Part shown: positions 6,837-26,689 of the stretch, piece after piece
Layout: every line of letters begins with the position of its first letter
Position numbering within the stretch: the first letter of the stretch is position 1
DNA from: a bacterium
GTDB taxonomy: Bacteria; Verrucomicrobiota; Kiritimatiellia; CAIKKV01; CAITUY01
Length of the DNA: 64,000 nucleotides
Reading direction: 5' to 3'
Assembly: GCA_037132275.1 (NCBI GenBank)
Contig: JBAXPK010000009.1
Coordinates: 1,655-65,654 of the forward strand
Made by a program: the position numbers and the translations under genes
The notes under the pieces: generated by a model
What the model was told of the DNA's origin: nothing
What the model saw: only the letters and a program-made list of their open reading frames with translations
The model's database searches: none

Positions 6837-9472
6837 GGTTGGGGGAAGAGAGCAACCGTCTGATATTTGTCTTGGTCCGAGGGCTTCTCAGGCTTCGGTA
6901 TCATATTCGTGTGCAGGGACTCGATGCGATTGCGGCGCGAGGGCGGACCGGTATTCTGTTTCTGCCGAATCATCCAGCCCTCATCGATCCGGTTATTATG
7001 ATGTCACGGCTCTATCCCCGTTTCCGGCTACGGCCCCTGGCGGATCAGGATCAGGTGAACCGGCCGGGAGTTCGCTGGTTGGCTGAACAGATCAACGTCG
7101 TAACCATTCCTGATCCCGCCGTCTATGGAGGAGCCAGTCGCCAGGCGGTGGAGGAAGGCGTTGAAAAATGTATTGAGGCGCTGAAGTCGGGGAGCAACCT
7201 GTTGCTTTATCCGGCTGGTCACATTGCCCGCCAGCGGTACGAAGACCTGGCCGGCGCCAGCGCGGTGGAGACCATTTTGGAGCGTCTCCCCGGGGTGCGT
7301 GTGGTTCTCGTGCAAACCCGCGGATTGTGGGGAAGCTCATTCAGTCGTGCCTCTGGGATGGCGCCAGCGTTGGGCAAAATATTCAAGAAGGGGATCCGGT
7401 CGCTTCTCGCCAACGGACTCTTCTTCTCGCCGCGTCGAAAGGTTGATATCACGTTGTGCGAGCCCACCGACTTTCCCCGGACTGGTGGCCGGGCGGTGTT
7501 GAACCGGTATCTCGAGACCTTTTATAATCACGATGCCCCGCCTGCATGGTACGTGCCTTATACCCGCTGGGAAAAGGGCGATGCCCATAAATTGCCCGAG
7601 CCGGTGCACGGGGCGACGGCCGGGGATCTCTCCGAAGTTCCGGCTGTTGTTCGGGACCAGGTGATCAAGCATCTGCGGGATCTGACAGGGCGTTCCTCGA
7701 TCCAAGACGCGGATTCCCTGGCCCGGGATTTGAACCTCGACAGTCTTGCCCTGGTTGACTTGGGACTCTGGGTGGAAGCCGAGTTCGGGTTTCCGGTCAG
7801 CGATGGCGCCGGGATGGAAACGGTTGGGGATGTTCTGCTGGCTGCCCGGGGCTTTTCTGCGGCCCCCGTGAAACAGGAACTAAAACCTGTTTCCCCGTCT
7901 TGGTTCCCGGCTCAAGGTCGGAGAGGCGACATTGCGATTCCCGGAGGTGACATGCTGACTTCCGTCTTCCTCGCCCAAGCCCGTCAGGGGCTTGATCGTG
8001 TTGTGCTGGCAGACCAGACCGGCGGGGTGAAGACCTATAGGGATGTGATTACCGGGATTCTGGCGCTCAAGCCGCAGATCGAGCGATTACCCGGCGACAT
8101 GGTCGGTATCATGCTCCCCGCCTCGGCGGGCGCCGGTGTGCTTTATCTCGCCATCTTGTTTGCCGGCAAGACTCCCGTGATGGTGAACTGGACGGTAGGG
8201 GTTCGCAATATGACCCACTCCCTTGATCTTTTGGGTGTGAAGGCCGTGCTTACGGCGGGCCGCGTGGTTCAGAAAATAGAATCCCAGTCCGGCAACTTGG
8301 GGTCGCTCAAAGAGCGGTTTATGCTGGTGGAGGAACTGGCCAAGAGGATGGGAAAAGGGACCAAACTGAGGGCTTGGCTGGCGGCGCGGACGTTCTGGCG
8401 CCGGAGTTTATCTTCGGTGTCGGTTCGGGATACGGCGGTGGTTCTGTTCACGAGCGGTTCCGAGAGTCTGCCCAAGGCCGTGCCGCTGACCCATGCCAAT
8501 CTTCTCGCGAATTTGCGCGACTTCACCAAAGTATTTCATTTTGCCACGGAGGATCGCCTGATCGGCATTCTGCCCCCGTTTCATTCTTTCGGGCTGACCT
8601 GTACCCTGCTGTTGCCCTTGTGCAGCGGCATCCCGGTGGCGTATCACCCCAATCCCACGGAAGGAGCCATGCTGGCGAGGTTGATTGAGGCGTATCGAAT
8701 CACCCTGCTGGTGGGGACGCCCACGTTCCTGGGCGGGATTCTGAGGGCTGTGAAGGGGGCGGAGTTGGATTCCCTCCGTGCTGTCATAACCGGTGCCGAG
8801 AAATGCCCGGAGGCAGTCTTTGACCTGATTCATCGCCAGTGGCCGCAGCTGAAAGTCATTGAGGGCTATGGTATCACCGAGTGTTCGCCGGTCGTGTCAG
8901 CCAACGACGAAGCAAACCCGCAATCGGGCACGATTGGCAGGGCGCTTCCCTCGGTCGAGACGGCGCTGGTGGACGTGGAGACCGGGCGCCGAATCGAACC
9001 GGGTCGCCCGGGAATGCTGCTGGTGCGCGGGCCCAGTATTTTCGGGGGATATCTGAACTATGACGGCGCCTCGCCGTTTGTGGAGTTTGAGGGGAAGTCG
9101 TGGTACAGAACCGGCGACCTGGTGATGCAGCGACCGGATGGGATACTGGTATTTTCCGGGCGGCTGAAGCGGTTCGTCAAACTGGGTGGCGAGATGATTT
9201 CGCTCCCTGCGATTGAGGAGGCGCTGGCGCGTTACTATGTGAAGCCGACCGATGAGGAGCCGGTGATTGCCGTCGAGGCGACGCCCGTTGATCTCAACCC
9301 GGAGCTGGTTCTCTTTACCATCCGGGAGTTGGATCGCGAGGAGGTCAACAACCGGATCAAGGAGGCAGGCCTGTCGCCCTTGCATAACATTCGTTTGATC
9401 CGCCGGGTCGAGAAAATTCCAGTTCTGGGCACGGGTAAAACCGACTACCGGGCGTTGCGGGAACTTAGGTGA
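6833..9472 (+). CDS. aas: Tri-domain Aas-like enzyme: PlsC-type acyltransferase + carrier (PP-binding) domain + acyl-ACP/AMP-forming synthetase
   Basis: NHPALIDP (HX4D-like) acyltransferase block. DLNLDSLALVDL phosphopantetheine-site-like motif. LFTSGSESLPKAV and YGITE..GDL..GRLKRFVKLGGE adenylation motifs. Confidence 0.85.
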   Translation: MRLGEESNRLIFVLVRGLLRLRYHIRVQGLDAIAARGRTGILFLPNHPALIDPVIMMSRLYPRFRLRPLADQDQVNRPGVRWLAEQINVVTIPDPAVYGGASRQAVEEGVEKCIEALKSGSNLLLYPAGHIARQRYEDLAGASAVETILERLPGVRVVLVQTRGLWGSSFSRASGMAPALGKIFKKGIRSLLANGLFFSPRRKVDITLCEPTDFPRTGGRAVLNRYLETFYNHDAPPAWYVPYTRWEKGDAHKLPEPVHGATAGDLSEVPAVVRDQVIKHLRDLTGRSSIQDADSLARDLNLDSLALVDLGLWVEAEFGFPVSDGAGMETVGDVLLAARGFSAAPVKQELKPVSPSWFPAQGRRGDIAIPGGDMLTSVFLAQARQGLDRVVLADQTGGVKTYRDVITGILALKPQIERLPGDMVGIMLPASAGAGVLYLAILFAGKTPVMVNWTVGVRNMTHSLDLLGVKAVLTAGRVVQKIESQSGNLGSLKERFMLVEELAKRMGKGTKLRAWLAARTFWRRSLSSVSVRDTAVVLFTSGSESLPKAVPLTHANLLANLRDFTKVFHFATEDRLIGILPPFHSFGLTCTLLLPLCSGIPVAYHPNPTEGAMLARLIEAYRITLLVGTPTFLGGILRAVKGAELDSLRAVITGAEKCPEAVFDLIHRQWPQLKVIEGYGITECSPVVSANDEANPQSGTIGRALPSVETALVDVETGRRIEPGRPGMLLVRGPSIFGGYLNYDGASPFVEFEGKSWYRTGDLVMQRPDGILVFSGRLKRFVKLGGEMISLPAIEEALARYYVKPTDEEPVIAVEATPVDLNPELVLFTIRELDREEVNNRIKEAGLSPLHNIRLIRRVEKIPVLGTGKTDYRALRELR

Positions 9473-22677: not shown

Positions 22678-22746
22678 TCCGAACCACCGGCCGCACTGTA
22701 CGCCTCGCCCTGTCGGGCTCGTCACCAGTGAGCCGGAACGTTCGCC
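22678..22746 (+). repeat. attC-like site A
   Basis: R'' TCCGAAC, arm CCGGC(CG)CACTG, loop, arm CAGTG(A)GCCGG, spacer AAC, R' GTTCGCC. Confidence 0.55.
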
Positions 22747-22758
22747 CCGAAAAGATGA

Positions 22759-22786
22759 TTGACGTAAGTATAACTTCGGTTATACT
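22759..22786 (+). promoter_or_regulatory. Candidate promoter/operator of cassette 1
   Basis: TTGACG (22759-22764), 16-nt spacer, TATACT (22781-22786). A perfect 8-bp inverted repeat AGTATAAC-TTCG-GTTATACT (22767-22786) overlaps the -10. Confidence 0.4.
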
Positions 22787-22794
22787 ATTTGATT

Positions 22795-23031
22795 ATGAAA
22801 ACGGCTATATCAATACCGGATGACATCTTCAGCGCGGCGGAGAATTTCGCCCATCAAAGTCACTTGAGCCGAAGCGCTCTGTTTACTCGCGCTTTGGTGG
22901 AATTCCTGTCTCGTCGGCGGAATGAAGGGGTGACGGAACGGCTCAATCGACTGTACAGCAGTGAAGAGTCTCACCTTGATGAAACCCTTTTGAAAATGCA
23001 GGCTTCCGTGGTTTCCAAGGAGAAATGGTAA
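22795..23031 (+). CDS. Ribbon-helix-helix (CopG-like) antitoxin
   Basis: MKTAISIPDDIFSAAE..SRSALFTRAL RHH pattern. It overlaps the downstream MazF-like gene. Confidence 0.75.
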   Translation: MKTAISIPDDIFSAAENFAHQSHLSRSALFTRALVEFLSRRRNEGVTERLNRLYSSEESHLDETLLKMQASVVSKEKW

Positions 23032-23369
23032 TGCACCGGGGCGAGATCTGGTGGGCATCTCTGGGTGAACCTGAAGGGTCAGGGCCGGGCTATCGGCGCC
23101 CCGTACTGATCGTGCAATCGGATGAATTTAATCGTAGCCGGATCAGCACCGTCATAGTTGTGGTTCTCACGTCCAATGTTGCCCTGGCTCAAGCACCGGG
23201 TAATGTTCTGCTCAAAGCGCGGCATGCGGGACTTGCCAAGGACTCCGTAGTCAATGTCTCGCAGGTGATCACAGTGGACAAGCAATGTCTGACCGAAAAG
23301 GTAAAGAAGCTGGAATCATCCGCGATGGCGGAAATCGATAATGGGCTGCGGCTTGTTTTAGCCATTTGA
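23025..23369 (+). CDS. mazF: MazF/PemK-family toxin (endoribonuclease)
   Basis: RGEIWWASLGEPEGSGPGYRRPVLIVQSDEFN..VVVLTS is the PemK signature. Confidence 0.85.
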   Translation: MVMHRGEIWWASLGEPEGSGPGYRRPVLIVQSDEFNRSRISTVIVVVLTSNVALAQAPGNVLLKARHAGLAKDSVVNVSQVITVDKQCLTEKVKKLESSAMAEIDNGLRLVLAI

Positions 23370-23374
23370 AACTC

Positions 23375-23435
23375 GGCGAACAACACCTCGGAGTTTACGT
23401 CGCTGACGCGCCGAAACTCAAGGTGAGCGTTCGCC
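23375..23435 (+). repeat. attC-like site B
   Basis: R'' GGCGAAC, AA, CACCTCGGAGTTT, loop ACGTCGCTGACGCGCCG, AAACTCAAGGTG, AGC, R' GTTCGCC. Confidence 0.6.
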
Positions 23436-23475
23436 ATATATAAGACGGACAGGAAAAATGTTTGTATGCACGCCA

Positions 23476-23496
23476 GGTATGATATATAGTCATACC
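23476..23496 (+). promoter_or_regulatory. Candidate operator of cassette 2
   Basis: Perfect inverted repeat GGTATGA-TATATAG-TCATACC. It ends 20 nt upstream of the ATG at 23517 and is followed by AAAAGAGG. Confidence 0.35.
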
Positions 23497-23516
23497 ATAA
23501 CTTAAAAGAGGCATAT

Positions 23517-23759
23517 ATGGCTGTCGCAAAAATTGCTATTTCACTGGAAGAGGACATTCTTGTTGAGCTCGACCGACTTGTGCGGCGGCATATTTTCCCC
23601 AATCGAAGCCGCGCCATTCAGGAGGCGGTAATGGAAAAGGTGACGCGTCTCTCCGCCAACCGTCTTGCGACTGAGTGCGCAAAACTCGATCCCAAGGCGG
23701 AACAGGCCTTGGCTGAGGAAGGAATGTCCAAGGAGGTCGCCTCATGGCCAGAATATTGA
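23517..23759 (+). CDS. Ribbon-helix-helix (CopG-like) antitoxin
   Basis: [35 protein letters not shown] pattern. It overlaps the downstream toxin gene. Confidence 0.75.
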
Positions 23760-24106
23760 GGGGCGACCTCGTCTGGGCTGACCTGAACCCGGTAAAGGGG
23801 CATGAACAGGCCGGGCTCCGCCCGGCACTGATCCTCAGCCCGGAGATATTCAATGATCGCTCCGGAACGGTGATTGCCATGGCGCTCACAAGTCAACCGC
23901 AGAGGGCGGGATTCCCGCTCACCATGGAAATCACAAGCGTTTCCCTCCCGAAGCCGACCTGGGTGAAGATCAGCCAGATCAGAACGCTTTCCGTTGAGCG
24001 ATTGGGCAAGCGAATGGGACATGTTTCTGATGCCGAGATGAGCCAAATCATCGAAGGACTGAATGAAATCATCGGCGAACAAGCAAATTCAGGCTATCGC
24101 CGCTGA
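23744..24106 (+). CDS. mazF: MazF/PemK-family toxin
   Basis: [34 protein letters not shown]. The 3' end lies inside attC-like site C. Confidence 0.85.
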
Positions 24107-24137
24107 GCGCGGCTCAGCCTGATTTGCACCGTTGGGC
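24074..24137 (+). repeat. attC-like site C
   Basis: R'' GGCGAAC, AA, GCAAATTCAGGCT, loop, AGCCTGATTTGC (one T bulged), ACC, R' GTTGGGC (fits GTTRRRY). Confidence 0.6.
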
Positions 24138-24161
24138 CGATCAATGAAAATTGAACACCAC

Positions 24162-24190
24162 TTGACGTAGATACTTAATGTATATACATT
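24162..24190 (+). promoter_or_regulatory. Candidate sigma70-type promoter of the brnTA cassette
   Basis: TTGACG (24162-24167), 17-nt spacer, TACATT (24185-24190). The -10 ends 7 nt before the brnT ATG. Confidence 0.35.
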
Positions 24191-24197
24191 GCTGCCA

Positions 24198-24476
24198 ATG
24201 AAGTTCACATGGGATGAGGAAAAGAATGCGATCAACCGGCAATAACACGGGATCGATTTTGATGACGTCTCGACTGTTTTCGAGAAGCCCATGGTGACGT
24301 TCCTTGACCAGAGGAAAGAGTATGGTGAGGACAGATGGGTGGGAATTGGATGGCTTAGCGACATTCTGGCGGTGATTGTGTTTACCGAGCCCGATGACGA
24401 GACCATCCGGGTTATCTCCGCCCGAAAGGCAAAACGACATGAAGCACACATCTACAAACAAGAAATCAGGAACTGA
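24198..24476 (+). pseudogene. brnT: BrnT (DUF497) toxin gene interrupted by an in-frame TAA at 24243-24245
   Basis: The frame reads MKFTWDEEKNAINRQ*HGIDFDDVSTVFEKPMVTF...IRVISARKAKRHE. The stop replaces the conserved Lys of the N..KHG motif. Confidence 0.75.
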
Positions 24477-24705
24477 CTGGACCCGCCTTCGCGAGATGAA
24501 GGACGAGGACATTGATGTCTCCGATATTCCCGTGATTGACCGATCCATGTTGAAGAAAATGGTCATTCGGATGCCGGAGAAAAAGTCCCCGGTTTCAATC
24601 CGTCTCGATCCCGGTGTGATTGAATGGTTCCGGCGGCAGGGGCAAGGATACCAGACGCGAATCAATGCAGTTCTTAAATCCTATGTTGAGGCGCATTCGC
24701 ATTGA
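24439..24705 (+). CDS. brnA: BrnA-type antitoxin
   Basis: MKHTSTNKKSGTDWTRL..DEDIDVSDIP..VSIRLDPGVIEWFRRQGQGYQTRINAVLKSYV is the BrnA pattern. It overlaps the brnT 3' end. Confidence 0.8.
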   Translation: MKHTSTNKKSGTDWTRLREMKDEDIDVSDIPVIDRSMLKKMVIRMPEKKSPVSIRLDPGVIEWFRRQGQGYQTRINAVLKSYVEAHSH

Positions 24706-24723
24706 TCATCAGATGATGAACCC

Positions 24724-24787
24724 GCCCAACAACTCCTCGGAGAGTTTACGTCGCTAATCGCGCCGAAACTCAAGGTCACCGTTCGGT
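24724..24787 (+). repeat. attC-like site D
   Basis: R'' GCCCAAC (fits RYYYAAC), AA, CTCCTCGGAGAGTTT, loop ACGTCGCTAATCGCGCCG, AAACTCAAGGTCAC, R' GTTCGGT. It is a paralogue of site B. Confidence 0.6.
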
Positions 24788-24806
24788 CTCGCAAATTATG
24801 ATTGAT

Positions 24807-24838
24807 CCACACATGAGAGTGTGTGATGATGTGTGTGG
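24807..24838 (+). promoter_or_regulatory. Inverted-repeat-rich candidate operator upstream of vapB
   Basis: CCACACAT..CACACA-TGAGAG-TGTGTG..ATGTGTGTGG, followed by GGAGGA and the ATG at 24849. Confidence 0.3.
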
Positions 24839-24848
24839 AGGAAATGAT

Positions 24849-25049
24849 ATGGCAACAAACCTACAACTCGATGACAAGCTGATCAAGCAAGCCGTCGCAC
24901 TTGGTTGTCACCGCACAAAGAGGGCGGCGGTGACACAGGCGTTGTCTGACTACATTCGCAACCTTCAGCAGGAGAAGATTCTTGATCTGTTTGGGAAGGT
25001 CGACTTCACCCAGGGATATGACTATAAACGGCAGCGGGCTAAAGCATGA
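24849..25049 (+). CDS. vapB: VapB-family antitoxin
   Basis: MATNLQLDDKLIKQAVALG..TKRAAVTQAL pattern. ATGA overlap with the PIN gene. Confidence 0.75.
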   Translation: MATNLQLDDKLIKQAVALGCHRTKRAAVTQALSDYIRNLQQEKILDLFGKVDFTQGYDYKRQRAKA

Positions 25050-25507
25050 GAGTACTCGTTGATACGAGTATTTGGTCGCTCGCTCTACGCCGGTCAGGGC
25101 ATGTCCAGAATCCGGAAGCTGAGGAGTTGAAGCGCCTGATTGGTTTGCATGTGGTGGAAATCATTGGGCCCATCCGTCAGGAGATCCTCTCTGGGGTGAG
25201 GGAGCAGTCGCAGTTTAATCAACTGGAATCACAACTCGCTGTATTTCCTGATCTGCCACTGCATTCCGAGGACTTCGCGACAGCAGCCAAAATGTTCAAT
25301 GTATGCCGTTCAAAGGGCATTCAGGGTTCAAATACTGATTTCCTGATCTGCGCGGTTGCTGTGCGGTACGATTTTGCAGTCTTCACGACGGATGCCGACT
25401 TTCGTCTTTTCGCCAAGTGCCTGCCCATCGTCATTCATGAATTCAAAACAATGGCCGAACCACACCGTGTTCCGTACGGCTCGCAAGCTCGCCGCCGGAA
25501 ACGGTGA
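25046..25507 (+). CDS. vapC: PIN-domain VapC toxin
   Basis: MRVLVDTSIW..E..TDFLICAVA..FTTDADF acidic PIN residues. The C-terminal tail is encoded inside attC-like site E. Confidence 0.8.
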   Translation: MRVLVDTSIWSLALRRSGHVQNPEAEELKRLIGLHVVEIIGPIRQEILSGVREQSQFNQLESQLAVFPDLPLHSEDFATAAKMFNVCRSKGIQGSNTDFLICAVAVRYDFAVFTTDADFRLFAKCLPIVIHEFKTMAEPHRVPYGSQARRRKR

Positions 25508-25516
25508 CCGTTCGCT
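25454..25516 (+). repeat. attC-like site E
   Basis: R'' GCCGAAC, CAC, ACCGTGTTCCG, loop TACGGCTCGCAAGCTCGCCG, CGGAAACGGT (one G bulged), GAC, R' GTTCGCT. Confidence 0.6.
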
Positions 25517-25576
25517 CAATAAAAGAGGGATTGATAAAATGGGCTAATTTAGAGATAGTACTCGAAGGTGACAAAC

Positions 25577-25783
25577 ATGGTTATGATACATCCAGAATAT
25601 GTGGTTGACGCGCAACAGCATCGAAAGGCTGTCTTATTGCCTGTGGTCGAATGGGAACAGATCGTTGATGAGCTCGAGGAGCTGGATGATATACGAGCTT
25701 ATGACCAGGCGAAGGCTTCCTCTCAGGAAAAGATTCCCTTTGAGCAGGCCGTCCGGGAGATCCGCCTCGGAATCGGCGCATGA
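25577..25783 (+). CDS. Antitoxin partnered with the RelE/ParE toxin (Phd/RelB-like, unclassified)
   Basis: Small acidic protein (..VVEWEQIVDELEELDDIRAYDQAK..). SD GAAGGTG lies upstream of the ATG at 25577. ATGA overlap with the toxin. Confidence 0.65.
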   Translation: MVMIHPEYVVDAQQHRKAVLLPVVEWEQIVDELEELDDIRAYDQAKASSQEKIPFEQAVREIRLGIGA

Positions 25784-26034
25784 GTTACGGGCTTGAAATC
25801 TTACGTGCAGCCCAAAAGCAACTCGCTCAAATTACACCGGTTGATCGAGATCGAATTGTCTCTGCTATCAAGGATTTGGCGGATGCCCCTCGTCCCGCCG
25901 GGTGCAAAAAGCTTTCAGGCCGTCCCGGCTGGCGTATCCGAATAGGCTCTTACCGGGTCATCTATGAGATCCATGATGACAAGTTGATGATACTTGTCGT
26001 CACTGTTGGCCACCGAAGAGAAATATACCGATAG
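25780..26034 (+). CDS. relE: RelE/ParE-family toxin
   Basis: ..KKLSGRPGWRIRIGSYRVIYEIHDDKLMILVVTVGHRREIY is the classic RelE/StbE C-terminus. Confidence 0.85.
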   Translation: MSYGLEILRAAQKQLAQITPVDRDRIVSAIKDLADAPRPAGCKKLSGRPGWRIRIGSYRVIYEIHDDKLMILVVTVGHRREIYR

Positions 26035-26208
26035 CGAACCAGCTCTTACCACGACGGCTCGCATGCTCGCCGCAGGTCAAGAGTCACGTGTGCGCCCGGC
26101 ATGGCGCACGACTAGTGGGTGAAAGACCCATACGGAGCCGTACGTCCGGTGGTGCGAGAGCTGGGGGAGGGAACCCTCCCCTGGCTACTCGATTGGGGAA
26201 TGAGATTA
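26033..26208 (+). repeat. attC-like site F, split by a 114-bp insertion at the crossover point
   Basis: R'' AGCGAAC, CAG, CTCTTACC, loop ACGACGGCTCGCATGCTCGCCGCA, GGTCAAGAG, TCAC, G(26088) then the insertion, then TTGGGG (26203-26208). Confidence 0.5.
26089..26202 (+). other. 114-bp hairpin-dense insertion inside attC-like site F
   Basis: Terminal hairpin GTGCGCC-CGGCAT-GGCGCAC (26090-26109). GGGT-GAAAG-ACCC (26117-26129). GGGGAGGG-AA-CCCTCCCC (26164-26181). Deleting it restores GTTGGGG. Confidence 0.5.
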
Positions 26209-26235
26209 TAAAGATGATGGATAGGAATTAATTCA

Positions 26236-26310
26236 ATGTGGGAGGGGCACTCCGTGCCGCGACAGGTTCAAGAGAGAGTCTGAACGAGACAAGAATCGCG
26301 CCTCCCACAT
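26236..26310 (+). ncRNA. Candidate structured element (three-way junction) in an ORF-less cassette
   Basis: Perfect 10-bp closing stem ATGTGGGAGG/CCTCCCACAT. It encloses GGCAC-TCC-GTGCC and GCGA..GTTCA-AGAGAGAGTC-TGAAC..TCGC. Function and strand unknown. Confidence 0.3.
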
Positions 26311-26343
26311 GGGGTGAACTCAGGGTGATCAAAACGAGGACGA

Positions 26344-26407
26344 CCCCAACAACACACTCGTGCCTACCGTCGCTAAACGCTCCGGCGGCACAGTGTGAAC
26401 GTTCGGT
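26344..26407 (+). repeat. attC-like site G
   Basis: R'' CCCCAAC, AA, CACACTCGTGCC, loop TACCGTCGCTAAACGCTCCGGC, GGCACAGTGTG (one C bulged), AAC, R' GTTCGGT. Confidence 0.6.
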
Positions 26408-26422
26408 GTGAGGAATGACAAT

Positions 26423-26689
26423 ATGTGGGAAGTGATTTCGAAATACTATTGTATTGACTGGATTGCATTGGTGCTGAATGCAGTTGCAATTTTTCTTCTC
26501 GGGAAGAAACGAAAGGCGGGTTGGTCGCTGGGTGTTGTAGCCAACATTTTCTGGATTGTATTCGGCATCCTTGCGCACAGCGTGGCGACAATGGTTGCCT
26601 GCAGCATTTTCGTCGCTCTGAATGTGAAGGGTTGGTGGAACTGGAGCAAAGAGCAAGCACCGCCCCAGCAGGATGCAGGCGACGCTTAA
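26423..26689 (+). CDS. 88-aa three-TM membrane protein with possible PnuC-like half-transporter resemblance
   Basis: MWEVISKYYCIDWIALVLNAVAIFLLGKKRKAGW..NIFWIVFGI..ACSIFVALNVKGWWNW. Three hydrophobic helices and Trp-rich motifs reminiscent of PnuC. This is a weak call. Confidence 0.4.
   Translation: MWEVISKYYCIDWIALVLNAVAIFLLGKKRKAGWSLGVVANIFWIVFGILAHSVATMVACSIFVALNVKGWWNWSKEQAPPQQDAGDA

What the first reader, a model, noticed from the sequence alone, without database searches (positions are those of the whole stretch)
26089..26202. 114-bp hairpin-dense element inserted exactly at the G|TT crossover point of attC-like site F
Seen in sequence:
- Site F has normal R'', L'', loop and L'. After the spacer TCAC and G26088 it continues TGTGCGCC... 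instead of TTRRRY.
- Deleting 26089-26202 joins G26088 to TTGGGG (26203-26208). This recreates GTTGGGG, the perfect complement of the next site's R'' CCCCAAC.
- The inserted 114 bp has no ORF.
- It consists of stacked hairpins: GTGCGCC-CGGCAT-GGCGCAC at its left end, GGGT-GAAAG-ACCC in the middle, and GGGGAGGG..CCCTCCCC near its right end.

Inference:
- It may be a miniature ssDNA-hairpin-dependent mobile element, PATE or IS200/IS605-derived-like, which would insert without target duplication next to a short motif such as ..TCAC(G).
- It may otherwise be a remnant of an element that targets folded attC DNA.
- Either way it would inactivate this recombination site.
Basis: partly seen in the sequence, partly recalled or inferred. 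Interest (0 to 1): 0.7.

Follow-up and report, generated by a model that had tools for sequence, protein, structure and literature searches.

The report
Gutted group II intron inside attC
The hairpin-rich insert is the 104-bp dead remnant of a self-splicing retroelement (a class C group II intron) that once jumped into an integron recombination site. It is a fossil, and its main interest is that its living relatives enter the opposite DNA strand from the textbook attC-targeting introns.

Summary
The insertion is real, but it is 104 bp, not 114. It spans 26090-26193, and TTGGGG lies at 26193-26198.

- **Empty site.** Three metagenome contigs carry the same relBE/parE cassette (95% identical) with the same attC uninterrupted (...GAGTCACGT|TGGCC). 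This proves a precise insertion with no target duplication.
- **Identity.** The insert is the two ends of a class C (IIC) group II intron fused together. Nt 1-43 (42/43 identical) and nt 1873-1936 (59/64) of a 1,936-nt full-length intron found in metagenomes (L111) are joined at an ATA microhomology.
- **What is missing.** About 1.83 kb is gone: most of domain I, domains II-IV, the reverse-transcriptase gene, and the 5' strand of catalytic domain V. It cannot splice or move, and no other copy of this junction exists in the collections searched.
- **IS200/IS605-PATE idea.** Not supported.
- **Strand.** About 20 relatives, mostly in PVC bacteria, sit at the same GT|T position of R'. They lie on the attC top strand, sense to the cassettes. 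Canonical IIC-attC introns use the bottom strand at R'' and are antisense.
- **Lineage.** A small RT tree does not group these relatives with a canonical IIC-attC intron.

The parts
25512..26088 (+). Integron-type cassette F: own promoter, relB-like antitoxin (25568-25783), parE/relE toxin (25780-26034) and its attC. It runs from the TT of the preceding R' to the G of its own R'.
   Evidence: Pfam RelB-like and ParE_toxin. Promoter-like site at 25531-25559. Window 25517-26089 is 95% identical to L095 1384-1956, with unrelated DNA on both sides, so gene and attC travel together.
26033..26089 (+). attC site F, 5' exon side: R'' AGCGAAC, L'', loop, L', spacer TCAC, then GT of R'. The last 3-4 nt (ACGT/CGT) are the presumed IBS1.
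   Evidence: Sequence, fold, and uninterrupted alleles on L095-L097 and L103/L104.
26090..26132 (+). Intron 5' segment, matching nt 1-43 of the parent: GUGCG 5' splice consensus, first domain I hairpin GTGCGCC-CGGCAT-GGCGCAC, and second hairpin GGGT-GAAAG-ACCC.
   Evidence: 42/43 identical to full-length intron L111 and 43/43 to L112. Same 5' end in ltrA-carrying plasmid introns. Alignment A1.
26130..26152 (+). Domain V remnant: distal helix, loop and 3' strand only (ATACGGAGCCGTACGTCCGGTGG). The 5' strand AACCGCCGA with the catalytic triad position is deleted. ATA (26130-26132) is the junction microhomology shared with the 5' segment.
   Evidence: Alignment A2 against six relatives and a Cupriavidus intron. 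Rfam Intron_gpII alignment of L111 shows the complete domain V. For the window the same model reaches only 15.1 bits.
26155..26193 (+). Domain VI hairpin (26155-26191) with bulged branch-point A at 26187, and the 3' terminal ..CGAT (intron ends AT).
   Evidence: Fold, alignment A2. 59/64 identity of 26130-26193 to L111 nt 1873-1936, E = 1e-20.
26194..26198 (+). Displaced remainder of R' (T-GGGG). T26194 is the presumed IBS3. It also starts the next, ORF-less cassette (26194-26343 plus attC G at 26344-26408).
   Evidence: Sequence. The 3' exon begins with T in all 10 relatives with a known 3' junction.
22679..26408 (+). Array of seven attC-like sites: A 22679-22746, B 23375-23435, C 24074-24138, D 24724-24788, E 25454-25517, F (split), G 26344-26408. 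They separate toxin-antitoxin cassettes, all on the + strand. No integrase is adjacent or anywhere in the window (CALIN-like).
   Evidence: Coordinates and folds. Pfam MazF x2, VapB, PIN, RelB, ParE. Flanks are an NTP-transferase gene and maf. tblastn with IntI1 against the window gives no hit.

Best explanation
The insert at 26090-26193 is an internally deleted, non-functional relic of a class C (IIC) group II intron.

**Proposed history (inferred)**
1. A full-length intron of about 1.9 kb, acting as an RNA-protein particle, recognised the hairpin formed by the top (coding) strand of attC site F.
2. It paired its EBS1/EBS3 with ..CGT / T and reverse-spliced between GT and T of the R' box. It was then copied into DNA. 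As usual for retrohoming, no target duplication resulted.
3. Later, about 1,832 bp were lost between two ATA triplets. This removed most of domain I (with the exon-binding sites), domains II-IV, the RT/maturase gene and the 5' strand of domain V. The loss could instead have happened during cDNA synthesis, by template switching.

**What remains**
- The 5' 43 nt, the distal half of domain V, and domain VI.
- The relic can neither splice nor move.

**Likely consequence (inferred)**
- It separates GT from TGGGG in R', 1 nt from the integrase crossover point. This probably welds the relBE/parE cassette to the following ORF-less cassette.

**Family context**
- The parent belongs to a family, mostly from PVC-group bacteria, that sits in attC top strands, sense to the cassettes. 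This is the mirror image of canonical IIC-attC introns.
For: **Shown**
1. Exact 104-nt insertion. The same cassette and attC occur uninterrupted on L095-L097 (95% identity) and L103/L104.
2. Homology to intron termini.
   - The plasmid BLAST hits examined (H1, H9) are the 5' ends of introns with ltrA about 400 nt downstream.
   - The full-length 1,936-nt intron L111 passes the Rfam gathering scores for group-II-D1D4-3 and Intron_gpII.
   - L111 encodes an RVT_1 + GIIM protein without an endonuclease domain.
   - L111 matches the window at nt 1-43 (97.7%, E = 1e-14) and nt 1873-1936 (92.2%, E = 1e-20), 98/104 overall, with ATA at both breakpoints.
3. Anatomy. GUGCG start, AT end, domain VI with a bulged A 7 nt from the end, and domain V lacking its 5' strand.
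4. Weak direct Rfam hits on the same strand: D1D4-4 at E = 0.087 and Intron_gpII at E = 2.3.
5. Same target position in relatives. About 20 distinct sites have hairpin + ..CGT|intron|T.
6. A decay series exists elsewhere: 1,936-1,948 nt full-length, 615-796 nt ORF-less, a 302-nt relic without domain V, and 44-45-nt 5' stubs.
7. The + strand is the attC top strand.
   - The cassette homology boundaries show it.
   - Upstream genes of 14 relatives are co-oriented with the intron and end at the hairpin.
   - Hairpin bulges lie on the 5' arm, as in the aadA1 attC top strand of R100.
   - A canonical IIC-attC intron in a class 1 integron (L121) is antisense, has its bulges on the 3' arm, and has the junction GAATTGT|TAGAT.
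8. The literature states that IIC-attC introns use the bottom strand at R'' with TTGT/T (PMC3001079; PMC7923331).
Against: - The element itself is below every Rfam gathering score. Identification rests on similarity to full-length relatives, not on a model hit.
- No full-length copy or RT gene is in the 64-kb window, and the rest of the source genome could not be examined.
- When and how the deletion arose is not determinable. It could be DNA deletion after insertion or RT template switching during insertion.
- Loss of recombination at site F is not tested.
- Site F has an atypical bulge pattern, with one extra base on the 3' arm. The bulge argument therefore applies to the relatives more cleanly than to F itself. 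For F, the strand call rests on cassette homology.
Confidence: 0.93

Rival explanations
1. It is a miniature ssDNA-hairpin-dependent transposon (PATE or an IS200/IS605 derivative), mobilised in trans by a Y1 transposase and inserted 3' of a short motif.
For: Insertion without target duplication next to a short motif, in DNA that folds as a hairpin, and dense internal hairpins.
Against: - Both ends are homologous to group II intron termini, E = 1e-14 and 1e-20.
- The hairpins map to domain I, V and VI elements.
- The junction has no other copy in metagenome or viral collections, and there is only one copy in the window.
- Full-length relatives at the same target position carry an RT/maturase, not a transposase.
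Confidence: 0.01
2. The 104 nt are an integral part of a long attC, or a tiny ORF-less cassette inserted by the integron integrase at G|TT.
For: In one register the boundaries coincide with the G|TT crossover point.
Against: - The same attC exists without the 104 nt in three contigs, plus a diverged pair.
- The insert has no R''/R' boxes or attC-type bulged hairpin of its own.
- It is homologous to intron ends.
Confidence: 0.01
3. The relic is still used. It might be a group III-like mini-intron, with a 5' GUGCG end and domain VI branch site, spliced with help in trans from a full-length copy elsewhere in the genome. Or it might be a 3'-UTR structure that stabilises or terminates the relBE/parE transcript.
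For: - It keeps an intact 5' splice consensus, a well-paired domain VI with bulged A, and the 3' AT.
- Its size is like the Euglena group III introns described in PMC4424553.
- It lies sense to, and just downstream of, a promoter-bearing operon.
Against: - It has no exon-binding sites, no domains II/III, and half of domain V missing.
- The 3' segment has accumulated 5 of 64 differences from L111.
- There is no second copy and no conservation of the junction anywhere.
- No terminator-like site lies at its end.
- Trans-complementation of domain I plus domain V together has not been reported for bacterial IIC introns (my knowledge).
Confidence: 0.04
4. Same identity, a IIC intron relic, but the internal deletion arose during insertion. 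The reverse transcriptase would have switched template from domain V to nt about 43 of the intron RNA, so a full-length copy never resided at this site.
For: - Both termini and both exon junctions are precise.
- A 3-nt microhomology (ATA) lies at the junction, which is compatible with template switching.
- Several independent relics break at nt 43-46, which hints at a structural hot spot just after the second hairpin.
Against: - Microhomology-mediated DNA deletion explains the junction equally well.
- Other relics (L114, L053) keep only the 5' 44-45 nt. That cannot come from a cDNA started at the 3' end, so DNA-level deletion does occur in this family.
- Nothing here discriminates the two routes for this copy.
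Confidence: 0.25

Closest known systems
Group IIC-attC introns (S.ma.I2, Sh.ba.I2, N.e.I1; Quiroga, Leon, Roy, Centron 2008-2010)
   Same: - Class C ribozyme termini and an En-minus RT/maturase in the full-length relatives.
- The target is a folded attC hairpin followed by a short IBS1, with insertion between GT and T of a GTTRRRY box.
- Canonical junctions are TTGT/T (PMC7923331), GAATTGT|TAGAT in L121, and GCCTA|ACAATTC on the top strand from the primers in PMC3001079. Here the junction is CACGT|TGGGG.
   Different: - Canonical members enter the bottom strand at R'', between a gene and its attC, antisense to the cassettes. This relic and about 20 relatives are in the top strand at R', after the whole attC, and sense.
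- In an 11-sequence NJ tree the relatives' RTs are monophyletic (100/100) and never sister to the canonical L121 RT (0/100).
- IBS1 is CGT rather than TGT.
Group IIC intron with unusual top-strand attC target in Enterobacter cloacae (Rodriguez-Martinez, Nordmann, Poirel, J Bacteriol 2012; known here only through PMC7923331)
   Same: A IIC intron that is not of the IIC-attC lineage, in the same orientation as the cassettes, inserted in the attC top strand.
   Different: - It is a single clinical case. The paper was not available, so position and sequence could not be compared.
- No plasmid-borne intron RT is more than about 52% identical to the relatives' RT.
Truncated group II introns in integrons and CALINs (UHB.F1, H.ha.F1, H.ha.F2; PMC7923331)
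   Same: Degenerate, immobile intron fragments lodged in cassette arrays that lack a neighbouring integrase.
   Different: Those are 5'-truncated (H.ha.F1/F2, class IIB) or cut off at one end (UHB.F1) and keep part of the RT gene. This one is an internal deletion that keeps both exact termini and no ORF.
Terminator-targeting class C introns (B.h.I1, O.i.I1 type; here the Cupriavidus plasmid intron L001 and many loci)
   Same: - The same 5' 20-mer, GTGCGCCCGGCATGGCGCAC or 1 nt different.
- The same domain V/VI layout.
- Insertion a few nt after a stem-loop, sense to the upstream gene.
   Different: Their hairpins are GC stems followed by T-runs. Here the hairpin is an attC with R''/R' boxes, and the site is GT|T.
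Euglena chloroplast group III introns
   Same: About 100 nt, retaining a group II-like 5' end and a domain VI-like hairpin (PMC4424553).
   Different: Those are spliced and numerous. This is a single decayed copy with no evidence of splicing.
IS1111-attC insertion sequences (ISPa21, ISPst6) and IS200/IS605 PATEs
   Same: Mobile elements that use attC sites or DNA hairpins as targets (PMC3001079).
   Different: No sequence or structural similarity to them, and no transposase. The relic's ends are intron ends.

Membership tests
Group II intron, class C (IIC) | 5' GUGYG and 3' AY termini | tested here: met
   GTGCG at 26090-26094 and ..CGAT ending at 26193.
Group II intron, class C (IIC) | Domain VI hairpin with bulged branch-point A near the 3' end | tested here: met
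   Hairpin 26155-26191, unpaired A at 26187, 7 nt from the end. It aligns with domain VI of relatives.
Group II intron, class C (IIC) | Complete catalytic domain V | tested here: not met
   Only the distal helix and 3' strand are present. AACCGCCGA is missing, and Intron_gpII reaches 15.1 bits against a gathering score of 40. The element is therefore a fragment of a member, not a functional member.
Group II intron, class C (IIC) | Domains I-IV with EBS1/EBS3 and an intron-encoded RT/maturase lacking an endonuclease domain | tested here: not met
   - These parts are absent from the relic. It corresponds to nt 1-43 and 1873-1936 of L111.
- They are present in relatives: D1D4-3 at 131 bits, TIGR04416 at 396 bits, and RVT_1 + GIIM only.
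Group II intron, class C (IIC) | Insertion shortly downstream of a DNA stem-loop with a 3-4 nt IBS1 and a 1-nt IBS3, without target duplication | tested here: met
   attC hairpin + TCACGT | T. The empty site shows no duplication. Relatives share ..CGT | T. The EBS-IBS pairing itself was not examined.
IIC-attC lineage (sensu Quiroga and Centron; Leon and Roy) | Insertion into the attC bottom strand at R'' (TTGT/T), antisense to cassette transcription | tested here: not met
   The relic is in the top strand at R', sense to relBE/parE. The control canonical intron L121 behaves as described in the literature.
IIC-attC lineage (sensu Quiroga and Centron; Leon and Roy) | IEP falls in the monophyletic IIC-attC clade | tested here: inconclusive
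   The relic has no IEP. The relatives' IEPs did not group with one canonical representative, L121, in 0 of 100 bootstraps. That tree has only 11 sequences, uses NJ, and includes one canonical member.
IS200/IS605-derived PATE or miniature element | Multiple copies with conserved subterminal hairpins recognised by TnpA(Y1), and a cognate tnpA in the genome | tested here: not met
   Single copy in the window. The junction is absent from metagenome and viral collections. The rest of the source genome could not be searched.
Integron attC site (site F as host) | R''/R' boxes flanking an imperfect hairpin that moves together with the upstream gene as a cassette | tested here: met
   Fold. The same gene + attC occurs in different contexts, with homology ending at the R' boxes. 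Integrase-mediated recombination was not tested.

The most novel reading that the evidence does not exclude
The relic marks an undescribed lineage of class C group II introns, mainly in PVC-group bacteria (Kiritimatiellia, Lentisphaerae, Verrucomicrobiota).
- This lineage acquired attC targeting independently of the known IIC-attC clade.
- It does so on the opposite (top) strand, at GT|T of R', so the intron lies sense to the cassettes. It can therefore be transcribed and spliced from cassette mRNAs.
- The lineage sheds ORF-less 0.6-0.8-kb derivatives, possibly mobilised in trans, and dead stubs that weld neighbouring cassettes together in integrase-less arrays.
Probability: 0.45. Interest if true: 0.6.

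Novelty: new member of a known kind. Interest (0 to 1): 0.35.

Why it matters
**For annotation.** Short, hairpin-dense insertions in attC sites can be gutted group II introns. RT-based and covariance-model screens both miss them, because this one is below every Rfam threshold.

**For integron biology.**
- The relic sits 1 nt from the crossover point. It probably freezes a toxin-antitoxin cassette and its neighbour in place.
- Its relatives suggest that attC hairpins are exploited by group II introns on both strands.
- The sense-strand variant is known so far from a single clinical case, yet it appears to be the rule in one environmental lineage. If confirmed, this bears on models in which IIC introns help to build cassettes.

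The relic itself has no activity, so the practical weight of this one locus is small.

Tried and rejected
- **Rfam at gathering thresholds on the window.** Only two tRNAs were found.
- **Exact-protein lookup of the window's ParE.** Not on record. The empty site was reached through homologues instead.
- **Deletion junction searched in metagenome and viral contigs.** Nothing found.
- **Three key papers were not held** (Leon and Roy 2009, two papers; Rodriguez-Martinez 2012). The canonical target was reconstructed from PMC3001079 primers and from a real example, L121.
- **Plasmid RT hits that were not in integrons.** Several best hits were checked as controls and rejected: IncC backbone, P. putida, P. 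aeruginosa and E. coli plasmids. L121 was then found.
- **A home-made attC scanner was too strict and was abandoned**. A breakpoint heuristic misbehaved, so those results were read by eye.
- **Integrase-mediated deletion as a cause of the nt 43-46 breakpoints.** Considered and rejected. The intron top strand has no GTT there, and the three breakpoints are not at one position.
- **ORF-less cassette downstream (26194-26343).** Its fold is not significant (z = -1.4), and it has no Rfam hit.

Full report
**1. Observation**

The sequence around the finding reads ...TAG CGAACCAGCTCTTACCACGACGGCTCGCATGCTCGCCGCAGGTCAAGAGTCACGT | GTGCGCCCGGCATGGCGCAC...GGCTACTCGAT | TGGGGAATGAG.
- The insert is 104 nt, not 114. 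GTGCG starts at 26090 and ...CGAT ends at 26193. TTGGGG is at 26193-26198, not 26203-26208.
- T26089 and T26193 are the same base, so the boundaries can be written G|TT (26089-26192) or GT|T (26090-26193).
- The element folds into four hairpins at -57.6 kcal/mol, z = -5.07 against shuffles.
- It carries no meaningful ORF.

**2. It is a true, precise insertion**

The ParE toxin upstream (25780-26034) has a 95%-identical homologue, P0001.
- P0001 is encoded on three metagenome contigs, L095, L096 and L097.
- There the same attC follows uninterrupted: CGAACCAGCTCTTACCACGACGGCTCACACGCTCGCCGCGGGTCAAGAGTCACGTTGGCC.
- A more diverged pair (toxin 89% identical, cassette DNA about 84%) on L103/L104 also has an intact attC.
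- Window 25517-26089 aligns to L095 1384-1956 at 95%, and the sequences are unrelated on both sides.
- So the relBE/parE genes and attC F form one mobile cassette. Its ends lie in the R' boxes of site E and site F.
- This shows that the + strand is the attC top strand, and that exactly 104 nt were added with no target duplication.

**3. What the 104 nt are**

The start resembles the 5' end of bacterial class C group II introns. The end resembles half of domain V plus domain VI.

*First leads*
- Rfam gives only sub-threshold hits on the + strand: group-II-D1D4-4 at E = 0.087 and Intron_gpII at E = 2.3.
- BLAST against plasmids hits 17 records with the first roughly 50 nt. The hits inspected that carry an annotated gene there (Cupriavidus H9, Pediococcus H1) have ltrA, the group II RT/maturase, about 400 nt downstream. 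Rfam finds D1-D4 at all three inspected loci and domain V/VI at two.

*Wider scans*
- A scan of one genome per species with the first 20 nt found 91 loci.
- A metagenome scan with nt 18-43 found 10 more.
- Among these, L111 and L109 hold a 1,936-nt intron that passes both Rfam gathering scores.
- That intron encodes a 437-aa RVT_1 + GIIM protein without an endonuclease domain.

*Match to the window*
- The window element equals L111 nt 1-43 (42/43, E = 1e-14) fused to nt 1873-1936 (59/64, E = 1e-20).
- ATA is present at both breakpoints. The loss is therefore 1,832 nt across a 3-nt microhomology.
- Alignments A1 and A2 show what was lost: everything after the second domain I hairpin, domains II-IV, the RT gene, and the 5' strand of domain V (AACCGCCGA).
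- Domain VI is intact, with its bulged A at 26187.
- The hairpin density therefore has an ordinary explanation, and the element cannot be a ribozyme.
- No RT gene and no second copy of either end is in the window.
- The junction sequence occurs nowhere in 241 million metagenome records or in viral contigs.

**4. Target site and strand**

*Two kinds of target among the loci*
- Introns whose sequence after the first hairpin reads TCACTTGGAGG... sit after GC hairpins followed by T-runs, which are terminators.
- Those reading GACTnnnGGGTGAAAGTCCC, like the window, sit after hairpins flanked by RYYYAAC ... GT|T RRRY. Their 5' exons end in CGT. Examples are L010, L027, L035/L054, L057, L047, L022, L053, L077, L044, L013, L043/L118, L081, L111/L113/L115, L112/L116, L114 and L117.
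- All ten known 3' exons begin with T.

*Canonical behaviour*
- The literature puts canonical IIC-attC introns in the bottom strand at R'' (TTGT/T), antisense to the cassettes (PMC3001079; PMC7923331).
- The deletion primers in PMC3001079 place S.ma.I2 at GCCTA|ACAATTC on the top strand.
- I verified this on a real case, L121, a class 1 integron on Providencia plasmid pCAVP450-238. Its intron starts with the published Sh.ba.I2 20-mer. It is antisense between qacE and qacEdelta1, with junction GAATTGT|TAGAT.
- The L121 5'-exon hairpin has its single-base bulges on the 3' arm, as does the aadA1 attC bottom strand.
- The aadA1 top strand, confirmed to follow aadA1 on its coding strand in R100, has the bulges on the 5' arm.

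*The window's relatives*
- They show the top-strand pattern. Bulges are on the 5' arm of the intron-bearing strand in L010, L057, L035, L047, L013, L043, L022, L111, L112 and L117.
- In 14 loci the upstream gene runs in the same direction as the intron and ends at the hairpin.
- For the window itself, the cassette homology of section 2 settles the strand.
- So this family uses the same GT|T step of a GTTRRRY box as the canonical lineage, but in R' on the top strand, sense to the cassettes.
- One such case, in E. cloacae, has been published (PMC7923331). I could not read that paper.

**5. Lineage**

An NJ tree was built from 11 RTs taken from the fetched loci.
- It puts the four full-length attC-top introns (L024, L027, L057, L109) in one clade, 100/100.
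- That clade is next to terminator-targeting introns. It is never sister to the canonical L121 RT (0/100).
- This suggests an independent origin of attC targeting, but sampling is thin.
- The best plasmid-borne RTs are only about 50% identical.
- The window's host is an uncultured PVC-like bacterium. Its TsaD has 83% unnamed matches, and its best named matches, at about 60%, are Verrucomicrobia and Kiritimatiellia.
- This agrees with the hosts of the relatives.

**6. Decay series**

The same family shows several stages of decay:
- full-length copies of 1,936-1,948 nt;
- ORF-less forms of 615-796 nt that keep roughly the first 260-590 nt of the ribozyme and domains V-VI (L010, L110, L035, L047);
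- a 302-nt relic without domain V (L112/L116);
- 5' stubs of 44-45 nt (L114, L053).

The window's element is the smallest two-ended relic seen.

**7. Mechanism and consequences**

*Shown:* identity, exact insertion, and strand.

*Inferred:*
- The parent entered by reverse splicing into the folded top strand.
- The deletion was microhomology-mediated, or alternatively an RT template switch.
- The split R' box now reads GTGTGCG instead of GTTGGGG, with TGGGG moved 104 nt away. This impairs integrase action, so the relBE/parE cassette and the following ORF-less cassette are fused.

The array has seven attC sites between an NTP-transferase gene and maf. It has no integrase next to it or anywhere in the window.

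**8. Verdict**

- The PATE/IS200 reading is wrong. The remnant-of-an-attC-targeting-element reading is right.
- The element is an ordinary kind of object, a degenerate group II intron.
- Its family context, sense-strand attC targeting, is moderately interesting and would need a proper phylogeny and mobility assays to establish.

Noticed in passing
window 26130-26132; L114 (oriented +) nt 2066-2109; L053 (oriented -) from 7003; L094 from 258: Independent relics of this intron family break at almost the same place, nt 43-46, just after the second domain I hairpin. The window breaks at 43. L114 keeps 44 nt and L053 keeps 45 nt before unrelated DNA, and L094 probably does the same. No explanation was found. 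It may be a structural hot spot for deletion or template switching.
   Followed up: partly
L010 1497-2224; L110 (rc) 1-796; L035 (rc) 1752-2366; L047 (rc) 793-1527: These are ORF-less derivatives of 615-796 nt. They keep much of the 5' ribozyme region (about the first 260-590 nt) and domains V-VI but lack the RT gene, and each sits in an attC top strand. ORF-less bacterial group II introns are said to be rare (PMC4424553). These might be mobilised in trans.
   Followed up: partly
L112 3412-3713 and L116 (rc) 8610-8911: A 302-nt relic of the same intron, matching nt 1-136, 265-370 and 1901-1936 of L111 and lacking domain V. It sits in the same attC in two different metagenome samples.
   Followed up: partly
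window 26194-26343: An ORF-less cassette lies between the relic and attC G. It contains a long imperfect hairpin (TGTGGGAGGGGCACTCCGTGCC...CGCGCCTCCCACA, about 26236-26312). It has no Rfam hit, and its fold is not better than shuffles (z = -1.4).
   Followed up: partly
window 24198-24476: The cassette between sites C and D starts with an ORF reading MKFTWDEEKNAINRQ followed by TAA at 24243-24245. After that the same frame continues (HGIDFDDV...). From memory it looks like a BrnT-type toxin with a premature stop. This was not tested.
   Followed up: no
window 26408-26689: After the last attC (G) comes a 93-aa ORF that matches only positions 3-70 of the 175-position NMN_transporter (PnuC) Pfam model. 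No attC was noticed between it and maf, though this stretch was not searched. It may be a truncated gene marking the end of the array.
   Followed up: no
L103 1-960: L103 carries a related array. Its nt 1-177 match window 25339-25515 (the end of the PIN gene plus attC E) at 93%. An extra cassette of about 200 nt with its own attC follows, and then the relBE/parE cassette with an intact attC. This is cassette gain or loss between related arrays.
   Followed up: partly
L098-L102: An 85%-identical ParE homologue (P0007) lies in a non-cassette context. No attC follows it, a convergent nucleotidyltransferase gene overlaps its stop codon, and an IS110-family transposase gene lies upstream.
   Followed up: no
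L024 (oriented -) 935-2872: One full-length relative, in a Kiritimatiellia MAG, sits after ...GCAGCACGT|T but without a convincing attC-like hairpin. It appears to lie inside or against an antisense ORF. It may be an ectopic insertion.
   Followed up: no
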